Shown piece after piece: positions 45,592 to 55,000 of a stretch of 64,000 nucleotides of DNA. Made by a program: the position numbers and the translations under genes. How positions within the stretch are numbered: the first letter of the stretch is position 1; each line of letters begins with the position of its first letter. The stretch spans positions 245,086,001 through 245,150,000 of the forward strand of contig OZ024741.1 in assembly GCA_964016885.1 (NCBI GenBank), read 5' to 3'. The notes under the pieces are model-generated. The model was not told the origin of the DNA. It searched no databases and saw nothing but the letters and a program-made list of their open reading frames with translations. The stretch comes from Eledone cirrhosa. Taxonomy: Eukaryota.

Positions 45592-48500
45592 AATCCCATT
45601 AAAAACCACATTAAAAATTCAATTAAAAATCTATTTTGAAAAACCCATTAAAAACCCCATTATAAGCTCATAAAACACTCCATTAAAACCCCAACCAAAC
45701 CCCCCATTAAAACACAATTAAAACATCATTAAGAATGCCAATAAAAGCGCCATTAAAAACCACATTGGAAACCCATAAAAACCCAATTAAAACAAAATTA
45801 AAGTTTCCATTAAAAGTCCCCATTAAAACTCCATTAAAACCCCCATTAACCCCCCCTCGAAAAGACATTAAAACCTCAAATTTAAACCGAAATAAAAACT
45901 CAATTAAAACGCAATTAAAAACTCAATTAAAACACCATTAAAAACACAATTAAAAGCCCATTAAACCAATTAAAATTGCATTAACACACCACTAAGGTTC
46001 CATTGGAAAACCATTAAAAATGTCATTAAAAACTACACTGAAAACCCATTAAACCCCCATTAAAAGCGCACCCAAAACTTTATAAAAAACCAAATAAAAA
46101 CCCCATTAAAATACCATTAAAACGGCATAAAACACCATTAAAACTACATTAAAACGCAATTAAAAATTCCATTTAAATCTCCATTATAAACTCAATTAAA
46201 ACTCCATTAAAACTCAATTAAAAACTCCATTAAAAACACACACACATGAAGTTACATGCTGGCTTGCACACTTATAGCGATTGCTATTTCCTTTTAATTT
46301 CATTAAAACTAGGATGTTTTAGAAAGATAAAAACAAAACTGAATAATGAAGAGACTAGGGAGGGGTAAAGAAAGGCAGATCAGGCTGTAGAGGACAGTAG
46401 GGGGAGAAGAGGGAAGAGACTTGGGAGGGGTAAAGAAAGGCAGATCTGGCTGTAGAGGACAGTAGGGGGAGAAGAGGGAGAAATAAACTAAATTATAAAC
46501 TAAGTTATAAACTAAATTATAAACTAAATTAAAAACTCAATAAAATAAAATAAAATAAAATAAAATAAAATAAAATAAAATAAAATAAAATAAAATAAAA
46601 TAAAATAAAATAAAATAAAAAATAAAATAAAATAAAAAAAATAAAATAAAATAAAATAAAAAAAACTAAAAAATATAAATAAAATAAAATAAAATAAATA
46701 AAATAAAATAAAATAAAATAAAATAAAATAAAATAAATAAAAATAAAATAAAATAAAAAAAAAAAAAAAAATTAAATATAAAAAATAAATAAAATAAAAT
46801 AAAATAAGAACTCAATTAAAAACTCAGTAAAAACTCAATTAAAAACTCAATTAAAAACTCAATCGAAGCACCATTAAAACACCATTAAAAACTCCACTAT
46901 AAACCCACTAAACCCATTAAAAACCAATTAAAAATTCAATTACACATCCCATTAGAAATTTCATTAAAAACTCAATTAAAAGTTCCATTGAAAACACATT
47001 CAAAACCCATTAACCCCATATTAAAAGTTCATAAAACTCTATTAAAAACCCAATAACAAACCAATTAAAACGCCATTAAAACGCCACAAAACACAATAAA
47101 ATGTCATAAAAACGCCATTAAAACATCACAAAAAGCCCAATTAAAAAACCATTAATAATGTCATTAAAAATTCCATAAAAATCCATTAAAAACTCCACTA
47201 AAAGCCCATTAAAAAGTTCATTAAAAGCCATATTATAAATTTCATAAAAAACAATTGAAAACCCCATTATTTATGAGCCTTTTTTTATGAGTTTTTAACA
47301 GTGTTTTAATTCAGTTTTTAATTGCGTTTAAAATTGGGTTTTAATGGCTTTTTAATGGAATTTTAATGGGATTTTCGATGGTGTTTAATGGGTTTTTTAT
47401 GGAGTTTTTAATTGGGTTTTCAATGGTGTTGTTTATGAGTTTTTAAATGGGTTTTTAATGGAATTTTTGATTGCGTTTTTAATGAAATTTTTAATAGATT
47501 CAAGGATGTTTTAATGGAGTTTTTAATGGTCTTTTTAATGGCGTTTTAATTGTGTTTTTATGGTGTTTAAATGCGTTTTAATGATTTTTAATTGGGTTTT
47601 TAATGGAGTATTTTTAATGAGCTCTTAATGGATTTTTCAATTGGATACTTAATGGGTTTTAATGGAATTTATAATAAGGGTTCTAATTGACTTTAAATAT
47701 GATTTTTAATGGAGTTTTTAATGAAATTTCTAATGGTGTTTTTAATTGCGTTTCCCCCCGTGAGGGTTTTAATGGCATTTTAAATGACATTTTAATGAGT
47801 TTTTATGATGTTTTAATGGCGTTGTAATTGTTTTTATTGGGTTTTTAATATAATTTTGTATGAGCTTTTAATGGGGGTTTTCAATGTTGTTTTTAATGGA
47901 GTGTTTAATGGAATTTTAATGGGGGTTTGATAAAAAAAATTAATTGCTTTTTAATTTAATTTTTAATGCGTTTTTGATGGTGTTTAAGTGCGTTCATGAT
48001 GATCTTTTTAATGGATTTTTAATGGGGTTTTAATTGACTTTTTAATGGTGTTTTCAATGTAATTTTTAATGATAGTTTAATGGTGTTTTAATGACGTTTT
48101 AATTGTGTTTTTTATGGTGTTTTAGTGACGTTTAAATATGATTTTTAATTGGTTTTTTAATTGAGTATTTATATGAGTTTTCACTGGTGTTTTTAATGGG
48201 TTTTTCAATATTGCATTTAATGAAATTTTTAATATGGTTTCAAATGGAATTTTTAATGTATTTTTAATTGGGTTTCTAGTGACGTTTTTAATGGTACTTT
48301 AAATGACGTTTTAATGACTTTTATGGCGTTTTAATGGGTTTTTTAATTGGGTTTTTAATGTAGTTTTTTAAAAGATCTTTACTTGGGATTTTATGGGTTT
48401 TCAATGCGGTTTTTAATGGTATATTAATGGAGTTTTTGGTGTGGTTGTTAATGGTATTAGTGACATTTTAATGTGTTTTTAATGGTGTTTTAAGCGAGTT

Positions 48501-48787
48501 TCTGATTTAGTTTAAATTTAAATATTTGATGGTCCTTCTAATGGGCTTTAATGGATGTGTAATGTGTTTAATGCAATTTTAATGGGGTTTAATGGGGGTA
48601 GTAGGTTTCAATGGGTTTTAATGGAGTTTTAATGGCTAGTGCTCTTTTTTTTTTAGAGTTTTTAATGGTGTTTTTAATGGTTTTTCATTGAGCTTTTAAT
48701 TGCGTTTTTAATTGCGTTTTTAATCTAGTTTAAAAATTGAGTTTTAATGGGTTTTTCAATTAGGTTTTTAATGGATTTATAATGGTG
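42698..48787 (+). repeat. Macrosatellite unit 8 (~6090 bp; GGATCC variant)
   Basis: Anchor at 42698, next at 48788. Confidence 0.95.
45023..45420. repeat. Foldback palindrome, unit 8
   Basis: Same termini and centre. Confidence 0.95.
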
Positions 48788-50650
48788 TTTTTTACGGACC
48801 CTTTAATTTTTTATAATGGGTTTTCAATGCCGTTTTAATGGTGTTTTTTAATGGTATCCTTAATGACGCTTCGATAAGTTTCAATGTTATTTTAATGGGG
48901 TTTTGATTGATTTTTTAATGGAGTTTTTTTAATGAACTTTTATTGGGGTTTTCAATCAGGTTTTTAACTGAATTTTTAATGTTTTTCAATTAGATTTTTT
49001 ATGGAGTTTTCATGGGCTTTTTAATGAGTTTTTAATGGTGTGCTAATTGAGTTTTCAATTACCTTTTTAATTGAGTATAAAATCGAGTTTTTACTAAGTT
49101 TTTAATGAATTTTTAATGGAATTTTAATGGGGTTTCCAATGGACTTTTAATTGTGTTTTAATGGGGTTTTAAAATTGGTTTTTAGTTGCATTTTCAGGGG
49201 CTTTTAATGGGGCTTAATGGGGGTTTAATGGGGGATTTAATTGAGTTTTTAATGGAGTTTAATAGAGTTTATAATGGAGGTTTTAATGGAGTTTTTAATG
49301 AAGTTTTAATGTAGTTTTTAATGAGGTTTTTAATGACGATTTTAATGGCGTTCTTAATGGCGTTTTAATGGTATTTTATGGCATTTTAATGACGGTTGTA
49401 ATGGTTTTTAATGGAGTGTTAATTGGTTATTAATTGTATTTTAATGGGTTTTATGAGCTTTTTAATGGACTTTTTAGTGGTGTTTTTAATGGAGTTTTTA
49501 ATGGGTCTTTTAATGGAATTTGCAATGTAGTTTTTAATGGTGTTTTCAATTGTATTTTTAATGACGTTTTAATGGTGTTTTTATGGCGTTTTAATAGGAT
49601 TTTTAAAGGACTATTATTATGGGTTTTTTATGTAATTTTATAATGGGATTTTCAGTAGGGTTTTTAATTGGATTTTTAATGGAGTTTATAATATGTTTTT
49701 TAATTGGATTTTTAAAGAATTTATAATTGCGGTTTTAATATAGTGTTTAATGGAGTATTTAATTGGTTTTTATTGGTAATTTTAATGGAGTGTTTAATGT
49801 GTTTTTAATGGGGGAGGAGGGGGTAAAATGCAGTTTTTAATTGAGTTATCAATGGAGTTTTTAATGACATTTTTAATGACGTTTTAATAGCGTTTTATGA
49901 CGTTTTAATGACGTTTTAATGGTTTTTTTATTGGGTTTTGGGAGTTTTTTTGAGCTTCTAATTAGGTTTTAAATGGGGTTTTCAATGAGGTTTTTAGTGG
50001 AATTTTTAATGGGCCTTTAATGTATTTTTAATGGGATTTTAATGTTTTTTATGGCGTTTTTAATGGTATTTTAAATGCTGTTTTAATGTTTCTTTTATGG
50101 CCTTTTAATTGGGTTTTTGATTGAGTTTTTAATGGATTTTTTTAACGAGAATTATGAAGTTTAATGGGTTTCCAGTGTGTTTTAAATGAAGTTTTTGATA
50201 ATATTTTTAATGGAATTTTAATGGCGGTTATGGGATTTTAATGGGTTCTGGTGGTATTTTTGTGGGTTTTAATGGGGTGTTAAATGGTTTTAATGTTGTT
50301 TTACTTGCGCTTTCGATTACGTTTACAATTAAGTTTTTACTGTTTTTAATTGGATTTTTAATGGATTTTAATGTGGTTTTTAATGGAATTTTAATGGTGT
50401 TTTAATATAGTTTTTAATGGGTTTCGGATGTAGCTTTTAATGGTGGTTTAGTGTGCTTTTTATTGGGTTTTTAATGAGTTTTTATGAGCTTTTCAATGGA
50501 GTTTTTAATGGTGTTTATATATATATATATATACATACATATATATGTATATATATATATTTACACATATATATGTGTATATATATATGTGTATATATAT
50601 ATTTACACATATATATGTGTATATATATATTTACACATATATATGTGTAT

Positions 50651-50690
<40 letters not shown>

Positions 50691-50770
50691 TTAAATATAT
50701 ATATATATATATATATATTAAATATATATATATATATATATATATTAAATATATATATATATATATATAT

Positions 50771-50811
<41 letters not shown>

Positions 50812-50855
50812 TATATATATATATATATATATATTAAATATATATATATATATAT

Positions 50856-50912
<57 letters not shown>

Positions 50913-51211
50913 TATATATATATATATATATATTCCACTTTCATGTTACACACTATATATAAACTGGGATTTATATTTTGCGTTAGTGCCATATTAAGCT
51001 GACAACGATATATTCGTATCTTAAAAAATATTTTTTTTAGATCACATTGTTCTAGATATTATTAAAATTATTAAATCTATTTTCAATTTGCACGAACACT
51101 TGCATATACTACATACATACATTTATATAGACACTAACACAAATATTAGCATATACATAATTTCTTAGTCATTGAGGATGTGTTTTTATACATACATATG
51201 CATATTGCATG

Positions 51212-51243
51212 GTGGCTGCCAACTCGTTTTCGAGTACGGCCAC
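51212..51243 (-). other. Terminal stem-loop of the insertion (putative LINE 3' recognition hairpin)
   Basis: Minus strand GTGGCCGTACTCGAAAACGAGTTGGCAGCCAC: inner stem ACTCG/CGAGT with an AAAA loop, outer stem GTGGC/GCCAC, at the extreme 3' end. Confidence 0.6.
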
Positions 51244-51269
51244 TACTTTATATCCATGTAGGAGAACCC

Positions 51270-51377
51270 CTACTGATGCGCTGAACGAGTGTGACTTTTT
51301 AGTCCAGCCAGCGACTTGAAAACTCTGGTACAAAGACTACACTTGTGACAATTATTGACACATAGTGTTGGGCCCAT
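51270..51377 (-). pseudogene. C2H2 zinc-finger-encoding fragment, likely the C-terminal remnant of a retroelement ORF2
   Basis: Manual translation gives MGPTLCVNNCHKCSLCTRVFKSLAGLKSHTRSAHQ* (frame open from 51443; TAG at 51272-51270), matching C-x2-C-x3-F-x5-L-x2-H-x4-H. Not listed in the ORF track. Confidence 0.78.
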
Positions 51378-51921
51378 GGTACCATGTGACGACAAGTGCA
51401 GAGAGATCTCCAGATATAAAGCAATGCCTGTGCCGTGAAGCTTTTATAGTGAGCAAAGGCACTGCACAAAGCCAGTCCCACTCTCTTAACCAAGATGATA
51501 TTTACCAAAAAGAAGAACAAGTCAACATCATTGGATACCATCAGGGTTGCAGGTGTTATATCAGAGTTTTCCTTCTCCTAGAATTCTGCCTTGACAAAGG
51601 CTAAGGGGTCATCATACACACATACAAGCATATACATAGACATACACACACACATATATACACACACTGTATATATATATATACATACACACACACACAC
51701 ATATATATATACACACACACACTATATATATATATAGTGTGTGGTGTATATATATATATGTGTGTGTGTGTATGTATATATATACAGTGTGTGTATATAT
51801 ATGTGTGTGTATGTGTATGTATATGCTTGTATGTGTGTATGTATGGATGCAATATGCATATGTATGTATAAAAAACACATCCTCAATTACTAAGAAAATA
51901 TGTATATGCTAATATTTGTGT

Positions 51922-51953
<32 letters not shown>

Positions 51954-52016
51954 CGCACACACTATATATATATATATATATACATACACACTATATATAT
52001 ATATATACACACACAC

Positions 52017-52071
<55 letters not shown>

Positions 52072-55000
52072 AATCCCATTAAAAACCACATTAAAAATTC
52101 AATTAAAAATCTATTTTGAAAAACCCATTAAAAACCCCATTATAAGCTCATAAAACACTCCATTAAAACCCCAACCAAACCCCCCATTAAAACACAATTA
52201 AAACATCATTAAGAATGCCAATAAAAGCGCCATTAAAAACCACATTGGAAACCCATAAAAACCCAATTAAAACAAAATTAAAGTTTCCATTAAAAGTCCC
52301 CATTAAAACTCCATTAAAACACCCATTAAACCCCCCCTCGAAAAGACATTAAAACCTCAAATTTAAACCGAAATAAAAACTCAATTAAAACGCAATTAAA
52401 AACCCAATTAAAACACCATTAAAAACACAATTAAAAGCCCATTAAACCAATTAAAATTGCATTAACACACCACTAAGGTTCCATTGGAAAACCATTAAAA
52501 ATGTCATTAAAAACTACACTGAAAACCCATTAAACCCCCATTAAAAGCGCACCCAAAACTTTATAAAAAACCAAATAAAAACCCCATTAAAATACCATTA
52601 AAACGGCATAAAACACCATTAAAACTACATTAAAACTCAATTAAAAATTCCATTTAAATCTCCATTATAAACTCAATTAAAACTCCATTAAAACTCAATT
52701 AAAAACTCCATTAAAAACACACACACATGAAGTTACATGCTGGCTTGCACACTTATAGCGATTGCTATTTCCTTTTAATTTCATTAAAACTAGGATGTTT
52801 TAGAAAGATAAAAACAAAACTGAATAATGAAGAGACTAGGGAGGGGTAAAGAAAGGCAGATCAGGCTGTAGAGGACAGTAGGGGGAGAAGAGGGAAGAGA
52901 CTTGGGAGGGGTAAAGAAAGGCAGATCTGGCTGTAGAGGACAGTAGGGGGAGAAGAGGGAGAAATAAACTAAATTATAAACTAAGTTATAAACTAAATTA
53001 TAAACTAAATTAAAAACTCAATAAAATAAAATAAAATAAAATAAAATAAAATAAAATAAAATAAAATAAAATAAAATAAAATAAAATAAAATAAAATAAA
53101 ATAAAATAAAATAAAATAAAAAATAAAATAAAATAAAATAAAATAAAATAAAATAAAATAAAATAAAATAAAATAAAATAAAAAAAATAAAATAAAATAA
53201 AATAAAAAAAACTAAAAAATATAAATAAAATAAAATAAAATAAATAAAATAAAATAAATAAAATAAAATAAAATAAATAAAAATAAAATAAAATAAAAAA
53301 AAATTAAAAAAAATTAAATATAAAAAATAAATAAAATAAAATAAAATAAGAACTCAATTAAAAACTCAGTAAAAACTCAATTAAAAACTCAATTAAAAAC
53401 TCAATCGAAGCACCATTAAAACACCATTAAAAACTCCACTATAAACCCACTAAACCCATTAAAAACCAATTAAAAATTCAATTTCACATCCCATTAGAAA
53501 TTTCATTAAAAACTCAATTAAAAGTTCCATTGAAAACACATTCAAAACCCATTAACCCCATATTAAAAGTTCATAAAACTCTATTAAAAACCCAATAACA
53601 AACCAATTAAAACGCCATTAAAACGCCACAAAACACAATAAAATGTCATAAAAACGCCATTAAAACATCACAAAAAGCCCAATTAAAAAACCATTAATAA
53701 TGTCATTAAAAATTCCATAAAAATCCATTAAAAACTCCACTAAAAGCCCATTAAAAAGTTCATTAAAAGCCATATTATAAATTTCATAAAAAACAATTGA
53801 AAACCCCATTATTTATGAGCCTTTTTTTATGAGTTTTTAATAGTGTTTTAATTCAGTTTTTAATTGCGTTTAAAATTGGGTTTTAATGGCTTTTTAATGG
53901 TGTTTTAATGGGATTTTCGATGGTGTTTGATGGGTTTTTTATGGAGTTTTTAATTGGGTTTTCAATGGTGTTGTTTATGAGTTTTTAAATGGGTTTTTAA
54001 TGGAATTTTTGATTGCGTTTTTAATGAAATTTTTAATAGATTCAAGGATGTTTTAATGGAGTTTTTAATGGTCTTTTTAATGGCGTTTTAATTGTGTTTT
54101 TATGGTGTTTAAATGCGTTTTAATGATTTTTAATTGGGTTTTTAATGGAGTATTTTTAATGAGCTCTTAATGGATTTTTCAATTGGATACTTAATGGGTT
54201 TTAATGGAATTTATAATAAGGCTTCTAATTGACTTTAAATATGATTTTTAATGGAGTTTTTAATGAAATTTCTAATGGTGTTTTTAATTGCGTTTCCCCC
54301 CGTGAGGGTTTTAATGGCATTTTAAATGACATTTTAATGAGTTTTTATGATGTTTTAATGGCGTTGTAATTGTTTTTTATTGGGTTTTTAATATAATTTT
54401 GTATGAGCTTTTAATGGGGGTTTTCAATGTTGTTTTTAATGGAGTGTTTAATGGAATTTTAATGGGGGTTTGATAAAAAAAATTAATTGCTTTTTAATTT
54501 AATTTTTAATGCGTTTTTGATGGTATTTAAGTGCGTTCATGATGATCTTTTTAATGGATTTTTAATGGGATTTTAATTGAATTTTAATGGTGTTTTCAAT
54601 GTAATTTTTAATGATAGTTTAATGGTGTTTTAATGACGTTTTAATTGTGTTTTTTATGGTGTTTTAGTGACGTTTAAATAGGATTTTTAATTGGTTTTTT
54701 AATTGAGTATTTATATGAGTTTTCACTGGTGTTTTTAATGGGTTTTTCAATATTGCATTTAATGAAATTTTTAATATGGTTTCAAATGGAATGTTTAATG
54801 TGTTTTTAATTGGGTTTCTAGTGACGTTTTTAATGGTACTTTAAATGACGTTTTAATGACTTTTATGGCGTTTCAATGGGTTTTTTAATTGGGTTTTTAA
54901 TGTAGTTTTTTAAAAGATCTTTACTTGGGATTTTATGGGTTTTCAATGCGGTTTTTAATGGTATATTAATGGAGTTTTTGGTGTGGTTGTTAATGGTATT

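What the first reader, a model, noticed from the sequence alone, without database searches (positions are those of the whole stretch)
51211..51612. Single 402 bp foreign insertion: candidate bipartite non-autonomous RTE-type retroelement with a hidden C2H2 finger
Seen: the only single-copy sequence in 64 kb, ~45% GC, present in unit 9 only and so younger than the array. On the minus strand, a 5' segment (hairpin GCCTT-TGTC-AAGGC, then CTAGGAGAAGGAAAACTCTGA) with stops in all frames is followed by a frame ending CSLCTRVFKSLAGLKSHTRSAHQ*, ~60 nt of UTR and a terminal hairpin. Established: many RTE-clade ORF2 proteins end in a CxxC..GLxSHxR zinc finger followed by a very short 3' UTR, and short non-autonomous elements joining RTE 5' and 3' parts are known. 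Inference: residues upstream of the finger do not resemble ORF2, so this is probably a 5'+3' fusion mobilised in trans rather than a plain 5' truncation, and may be an undescribed and recently active family.
Basis: partly seen in the sequence, partly recalled or inferred. Interest (0 to 1): 0.8.

Follow-up and report, generated by a model that had tools for sequence, protein, structure and literature searches.

The report
Truncated copy of abundant RTE-derived retroposon
The 402-base insert is a shortened, very recent copy of a 610-base non-coding jumping element with about 25,000 copies in this genome, built from pieces related to both ends of a larger retrotransposon that likely still moves it; its zinc finger looks like a leftover.

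Summary
The insertion is real: 402 bp, 44.8% GC, in 1 of 16 array units. It is not a unique element but nt 209-610 of a 610-bp non-autonomous retroposon with a fixed 3' end and variable 5' truncation. There are 24,549 exact copies of its last 27 nt; the window copy belongs to a young subfamily (121 exact copies of a diagnostic 44-mer). A likely autonomous partner lies in the same genome: an RTE-type LINE ('Z', intact 1181-aa ORF, endonuclease + RT + three C2H2 fingers). The element matches Z collinearly in the 5' UTR (69%), last finger (66%) and terminal 30 nt (87%), and lacks everything between. Both end before ATGT/ATAT in microsatellites. The finger shows no purifying selection. So the bipartite RTE reading holds, with corrections: the copy is also 5'-truncated, the full element has a 195-nt head of unknown origin, and its direct parent was not found. 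Side finding: a second RTE family took this element's 5' part as a new 5' end at five or more junctions. New member of a known kind; Repbase/Dfam not checkable.

The parts
51211..51612 (-). 5'-truncated copy (nt 209-610) of a 610-bp non-autonomous RTE-derived retroposon, youngest subfamily
   Evidence: 100% identical over 402 bp at 30 of 30 loci fetched (one is the window itself); full-length form L001:1293-1902; subfamily counts
51421..51612 (-). Segment derived from an RTE 5' UTR (element nt 209-400)
   Evidence: Element nt 194-400 aligns to the 5' UTR of LINE Z, 158/229 identical, score 174 vs shuffle max 41
51561..51581 (-). Conserved RTE 5'-UTR motif CTAGGAGAAGGAAAACTCTGA, also in Ceph-SINEs
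   Evidence: Sequence; GGAGAAGGAAAACTC occurs 74 times in the supplement of PMC5786205, in RTE/Ceph-SINE alignments
51367..51420 (-). Unassigned linker that holds the 5'/3' junction; may keep the HxxxH end of an earlier finger
   Evidence: nt 401-485 score 30 vs shuffle mean 26, max 38: no significant match to Z; HxxxH remnant is by eye only
51270..51366 (-). Vestige of the ORF C-terminus: last C2H2 finger (core 51276-51341) and stop codon
   Evidence: 61/93 nt to Z's ORF end; 16/22 aa to Z's last finger, the best of Z plus 203 database proteins; 8 of 9 shared changes non-synonymous
51213..51242 (-). Terminal 30 nt shared with LINE Z (CTCG-N4-CGAG stem-loop, GGCAGCCA): likely recognition and priming signal
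   Evidence: 26/30 identical to Z's 3' terminus, score 44 vs shuffle max 26; function inferred
51200..51210 (.). Target flank at the element's 3' end (reads ATGC... on the minus strand)
   Evidence: Empty site in 15 other units; 84 of 87 copies are followed by AT
51613..51629 (.). Target flank at the truncated 5' end; 9 bp of (ATAC)n lost relative to the common empty site
46348..52828 (.). Host tandem-array unit that carries the insertion (6481 bp vs about 6.0-6.2 kb)

Best explanation
The insert is a 5'-truncated, very recent copy of a 610-bp non-coding retroposon made of a 195-nt head, part of an RTE 5' UTR and the last finger plus 3' end of an RTE, and it is likely copied in trans by the intact RTE-type LINE 'Z' of the same genome. 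Inferred mechanism: the element is transcribed from its own 5' end; Z's protein binds the shared terminal stem-loop, nicks AT/ATGT microsatellite DNA and reverse-transcribes from the nick; here synthesis stopped after 402 nt and repair removed 9 bp of target. The family likely arose by internal deletion of an older relative of Z, so the finger is a passenger.
For: Shown: fixed 3' end with scattered 5' ends, 40 of 87 copies full length. Three collinear matches to Z with shuffle controls, and no endonuclease or RT sequence between them. Z has intact ORFs: 12 of 12 copies examined, chosen for long frames, 1179-1181 aa, 98.3-99.8% alike, YADD present; domains APE + RT + C2H2. Same insertion signature: ATGT or ATAT follows 80 of 87 element copies and 36 of 44 Z-type ends (Z and sister family 2 pooled). 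Microsatellite-like flanks upstream in 60 of 87 and downstream in 69 of 87 vs 4% background. The 15 empty units show that the microsatellite existed before insertion. Clear target duplications in 2 of 87 copies (50 and 12 bp). A sister family joins the same head, a Z-type 5' UTR and Z's 3' end without the finger. No selection on the finger frame.
Against: Identity to Z is only 66-69% outside the last 30 nt, so present-day Z is not the direct parent, and no closer parent was found. The head (nt 1-193) has no match in Z, also not further upstream of 7 Z copies. Only five or six LINE families were compared at their 3' ends, so another mobiliser is not excluded. The window copy and 85 of 87 copies show no unambiguous TSD (hard to see in microsatellites). 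The copy sample is biased towards near-identical copies. Transcription and mobilisation were not tested. The RTE label for Z rests on architecture and the 5'-UTR motif, not on a tree with named references.
Confidence: 0.82

Rival explanations
1. Same structure, but the element is moved by a different, undetected RTE (its true parent, with the 195-nt head and this exact 3' end), not by Z.
For: Only 66-69% identity to Z in the body; genome searches score only the best 40-150 candidates and are swamped by non-autonomous copies.
Against: Among 150 best matches to the finger peptide (96-100% identity) the longest open frame is 103 aa. Z is abundant, intact and shares the terminus and target signature.
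Confidence: 0.1
2. A true SINE: the head comes from a small RNA gene transcribed by polymerase III, followed by RTE-derived body and tail, like Ceph-SINEs or Bov-tA.
For: The same head starts three families with a sharp 5' end; a multi-hairpin fold is predicted for it; copy number is SINE-like.
Against: No tRNA by ARAGORN in 5 loci; no Rfam family near threshold within the element; no A/B boxes seen by eye; runs of 4-5 T inside the element would likely stop polymerase III (inference); covariation is weak (3 of 51 pairs, term -0.4 kcal/mol).
Confidence: 0.05
3. Internal-deletion derivative of the second RTE family ('B', L125), whose copies begin with the element's nt 1-277.
For: 98.6% identity over nt 1-277 to the 5' end of L125; 17 such copies among 30 loci.
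Against: B has no finger and ends in (CTGAGT)n with no match to nt 278-610. B also exists with a different 5' UTR. Junctions fall at 267, 277, 284, 300, 588 and 590, and nt 194-400 is continuous with Z across 277, so B took the sequence from the short element, not the reverse.
Confidence: 0.02
4. Fragment of a host zinc-finger gene, a virus, a contaminant or an assembly artefact.
For: Weak generic C2H2 hits to multi-finger proteins.
Against: 24,549 dispersed exact 3' ends; the finger is closest to Z and to RT-bearing proteins; the element is held in public runs under five organism codes at shares of 0.53-0.98 and was laid on contigs of 4 of 4 runs.
Confidence: 0.01

Closest known systems
Bipartite non-autonomous RTE elements (Bov-A, RTESINE1/2, WALLSI3, MAR4_MD, RTE-N2_Lch; Kojima 2018, PMC5786205)
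   Same: 5'-UTR part plus 3' end of an RTE, no RT, no small-RNA head detected, conserved RTE 5'-UTR motif.
   Different: Keeps about 100-150 nt of the ORF end with a readable finger; has a 195-nt head not found in the partner; only 66-69% identical to the living partner outside the last 30 nt.
Ceph-SINEs (OegopSINE, SepiaSINE, Sepioth-SINE; PMC5786205)
   Same: Carry the same RTE 5'-UTR motif.
   Different: Those have a tRNA head and a CORE-like domain; no tRNA head was found here.
RTE-2_OV of Octopus vulgaris (PMC9115989), as a comparison for partner Z
   Same: [quoted passage not shown]
   Different: 1109 aa vs 1181 aa; its sequence could not be compared, so identity with Z is untested.
5'-UTR switching of RTE LINEs in Nicotiana (bioRxiv 10.1101/2022.11.04.512097), for the side finding
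   Same: One LINE body with exchanged, non-homologous 5' ends; template switching proposed.
   Different: Here the donor is identified: a non-autonomous element that depends on another RTE, captured at several junctions.

Membership tests
Bipartite non-autonomous RTE | 5' part homologous to an RTE 5' UTR | tested here: met
   158/229 to Z 5' UTR; published RTE motif present
Bipartite non-autonomous RTE | 3' part homologous to the 3' end of the same LINE lineage | tested here: met
   61/93 nt to ORF end and 26/30 to the terminus of Z, both above all 100 shuffles
Bipartite non-autonomous RTE | No endonuclease or RT coding sequence; junction shared by all copies | tested here: met
   610 bp, six-frame translation; 87 copies align without a break to the 3' end
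Bipartite non-autonomous RTE | Keeps the extreme 5' end of the parent LINE (usual per PMC5786205) | tested here: inconclusive
   Head nt 1-193 is absent from Z; Z-lineage 5' ends may have been exchanged; parent not found
Bipartite non-autonomous RTE | Retroposition hallmarks: fixed 3' end, 5' truncation, TSD | tested here: met
   Fixed 3' end and truncation in 87 copies; clear TSD in only 2 of 87, none at the window site
Bipartite non-autonomous RTE | Mobilised in trans by the partner's protein | not testable with these tools
   Inferred from shared terminus and target signature
RTE clade (partner Z) | Single ORF with APE endonuclease + RT, no ORF1 | tested here: met
   1181-aa ORF, PF03372 + PF00078 + C2H2; upstream 1.6 kb is UTR-like and microsatellite-rich, not scanned for a separate ORF1 by Pfam
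RTE clade (partner Z) | RT groups with named RTE elements in a tree | not tested
   No named RTE reference among 84 homologues; PDB hits are L1 and R2 RTs only
tRNA/5S/7SL-headed SINE | Small-RNA-derived head with internal pol III promoter | tested here: not met
   ARAGORN 0 genes in 5 loci; no Rfam match near threshold in the element
Simple 5'-truncated LINE | Collinear with the 3' end of an RT-coding LINE over its whole length | tested here: not met
   Upstream extension ends at nt 1 in microsatellite; 5' half matches a 5' UTR
Functional C2H2 gene | Purifying selection on the reading frame | tested here: not met
   92 copies: 8 of 9 shared changes non-synonymous; rare changes 24 synonymous, 57 non-synonymous (23% synonymous expected), 12 indels

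The most novel reading that the evidence does not exclude
The 195-nt head is a portable promoter or RNA-processing module of unknown origin: it drives three non-autonomous families that ride on a microsatellite-targeting RTE, and it was handed on by template switching to a distantly related RTE (30% protein identity), where one capture founded a new LINE subfamily. That would be a parasite supplying a promoter to a second LINE, next to an APE-type RTE with a strong (AT/ATGT)n target preference.
Probability: 0.3. Interest if true: 0.6.

Novelty: new member of a known kind. Interest (0 to 1): 0.33.

Why it matters
The class is known, so the insert itself is ordinary. What is useful: a still-expanding family of about 25,000 copies paired with an intact candidate mobiliser; a clean natural empty-site control showing that the microsatellite came first (target preference rather than only tail seeding); young copies as polymorphic markers; and a traceable case of a non-autonomous element donating 5' ends to another LINE, which bears on how LINEs renew their promoters.

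Tried and rejected
Longer-protein search with the 57-aa frame: nothing. HMMER over cluster representatives: 119 generic multi-finger proteins, none closer than Z. RT-family search gave mostly a CR1-like family (label from recalled motifs) with no DNA match to the element in 30 loci. RTE-B as parent: rejected. An older finger-bearing RTE family: decayed; its 20 loci match the element only through inserted copies or 18-nt words. The idea that the finger is the N-terminal finger of an R2/NeSL/R4-type element (ATG at 51377 in good context) was dropped once Z's C-terminal finger and terminus matched. A GIY-YIG-like reading of the plus strand: no Pfam hit. Ribozyme in the head: no Rfam hit; HDV and twister patterns checked by eye from recall, not found. 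Head upstream of Z: not found in 7 copies. Four 10-kb upstream stretches held no extension of the element. Expression: no RNA holder listed. No contig bridged the window junction; not evidence either way. Earlier scan notes: none. Literature: seven searches gave no description of this family; element motifs were absent from the supplements searched, and the head motifs from that of PMC5786205. 4 of 8 supplementary files of PMC9115989 were not searched and 2 more are unreadable; they may hold the RTE-2_OV sequence. Repbase and Dfam are not available here.

Full report
Observation. The window is part of a tandem array of about 6.1-kb AT-rich units that runs from about 30 kb before to about 5 kb after the window. 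At 51211-51612 one unit holds 402 bp (44.8% GC) that give the only long run of unique 25-mers in the window. Of 16 homologous sites in the array 15 are empty. Compared with the common empty site, 9 bp of an (ATAC)n run are missing and there is no target duplication. The minus-strand frame ending ...CSLCTRVFKSLAGLKSHTRSAHQ* is present and scores 22.8 bits on zf-C2H2, below the curated cut-off.

It is a piece of a larger, abundant element. A search of the own genome returned 40 scored places, all 402 bp at 100% (rounded); the 30 fetched hold the 402 bp exactly. Most extend 208 nt further 5' and then end in microsatellite, which defines a 610-bp element (L001:1293-1902). Window position = 51821 minus element position. 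Among 87 distinct copies with an intact 3' end and flanks, gathered from all loci fetched (a sample biased to near-identical copies), 40 start at nt 1 and the rest anywhere from nt 3 to 457. The last 27 nt occur exactly 24,549 times, control 0. A 44-mer with the window's two diagnostic bases occurs 121 times, the older version 10,966 times, so the window copy belongs to a small, very young subfamily.

Target. 84 of 87 copies are followed by AT (40 ATGT, 40 ATAT). Twenty-base flanks are microsatellite-like upstream in 60, downstream in 69 and on both sides in 51 of 87, against 4% of 7,817 background windows. Copies cluster head to tail in such tracts. The empty array units show that the microsatellite predates the insertion at this site. 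Non-microsatellite duplications of 50 bp (L038) and 12 bp (L054) are visible in 2 of 87 copies.

First candidate parent, rejected. A DUF6451 search led to an RTE-like family 'B' (L125:1069-4506; APE + RT + DUF6451) whose first 277 nt are 98.6% identical to the element's. But B has no finger, ends in (CTGAGT)n, and also exists with a different 5' UTR. Among 30 loci the element's sequence is joined to the B body at nt 277 (17 copies), 284 (3), 300, 267, 588 and 590. 14 of the 16 junction-277 copies that cover position 54 share a change not seen as a shared variant in the short family, and some are 5'-inverted, so that chimera spread as a LINE subfamily. The direction is short element to B, because nt 194-400 runs on unbroken into a homologue in another LINE (next paragraph).

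Likely partner. A fragment in L129 led to a very abundant family 'Z'. Twelve copies chosen for long frames have ORFs of 1179-1181 aa, 98.3-99.8% alike, with APE endonuclease, RT and three C-terminal C2H2 fingers. The element aligns to Z in three collinear places: nt 194-400 to the 5' UTR just before the ORF (158/229; score 174, shuffle max 41), nt 455-547 to the ORF end (61/93; the overlapping test segment nt 486-550 scores 51, shuffle max 32) and nt 579-608 to Z's terminus (26/30; score 44, max 26); nt 1-193 and 401-485 do not match. The finger core is 16/22 identical to Z's last finger, against at most 15/22 in 203 database proteins, whose best are mostly RT-bearing relatives of Z. Z-type ends are followed by ATGT or ATAT in 36 of 44 cases (Z and the sister family pooled). 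Z's 3' UTR is mostly microsatellite; the short element has a compact 59-nt UTR instead. Of 84 database homologues of Z's C-terminal third, 42 carry a C2H2-type Pfam domain (my count), so fingers are common in this lineage, though PMC9115989 calls them relatively rare in RTEs. The motif CTAGGAGAAGGAAAACTCTGA is the published conserved RTE 5'-UTR domain, also in Ceph-SINEs. The RTE label for Z rests on this motif, the single-ORF architecture and recalled C-terminal motifs; no tree with named references was possible.

The finger is a vestige. In the 35-codon frame from the ATG at 51377, across 92 copies, 8 of 9 changes shared by three or more copies are non-synonymous; rare changes are 24 synonymous to 57 non-synonymous (23% expected by chance) with 12 indels. 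A sister family lacks the finger altogether.

The head. Nt 1-195 also start a sister family (L213-L242: head, microsatellite, Z-type 5' UTR, Z terminus; 22 of 30 loci printed, 8 failed my parsing) and a third form (L191). It is absent from Z's own long 5' region in 7 copies, has no tRNA or Rfam match, and is predicted to form several hairpins with weak covariation. Its origin and role are open; a promoter role is inferred from its fixed position and its repeated capture by B.

Mechanism. Shown: structure, copy number, truncation pattern, target bias, homology to Z, lack of selection on the finger, chimeras with B. Inferred: origin by internal deletion from an older relative of Z; transcription from the head; target-primed reverse transcription by Z's protein via the shared terminal stem-loop; early termination and a small target deletion at this site; template switching as the source of the B chimeras. 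No direct parent was found, and searches score only the best candidates.

Comparison with what is known. Bipartite non-autonomous RTEs are an established class (PMC5786205; I read parts 1-4 of 5 of the text and passages of its supplement). RTE-linked microsatellites are known (PMC2887409, passages), as is RTE 5' switching (bioRxiv 10.1101/2022.11.04.512097, abstract and one section). Seven literature searches found no description of this family, but Repbase and Dfam could not be checked. The element is also held in public runs under five organism codes and lies on contigs of 4 of 4 runs laid, mostly as the older subfamily.

Verdict. Observation confirmed; interpretation right in kind, wrong in treating the 402 bp as the whole element and the finger as special. 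New member of a known kind, interest 0.33. The unexplained head and its transfer to a second LINE are the parts worth following.

Noticed in passing
window 1-64000 and about 30 kb before, 5 kb after: Tandem array of 16-17 units of about 6.1 kb, 94-99% alike, built of degenerate 11-12-bp TTTTAATGGAG-type repeats in both orientations, (TA)n, (AATAA)n, a 65-bp dimer and a roughly 500-bp imperfect palindrome that holds the target site; one unit near 57.5 kb is rearranged. Nature unknown.
   Followed up: partly
L143-L164, L168, L171: RTE family B carries the short element's 5' part as a new 5' end at six junction positions; the nt-277 chimera spread as a subfamily with a private base change.
   Followed up: yes
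L213-L242, L183, L198, L191:2764-3260: Two sister non-autonomous families share the 195-nt head and a Z-type 3' end but lack the finger.
   Followed up: partly
L212:1-5606, L283-L289: LINE Z has many intact 1181-aa ORFs, a 5' region of at least 1.6 kb rich in simple repeats and a microsatellite 3' UTR of variable length; L204 has a piece of the short element fused to its 5' UTR.
   Followed up: partly
L065-L094: A CR1-like family with many open frames of 945 aa, apparently young.
   Followed up: no
L038: A truncated copy flanked by a 50-bp target duplication, long for a LINE-type insertion.
   Followed up: no
L140:764-2029 (-), L034, L243-L262: Further LINE families seen: an R4/Dong-like fragment, another RTE-like RT, and an old decayed finger-bearing RTE (labels from recalled motifs).
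   Followed up: no
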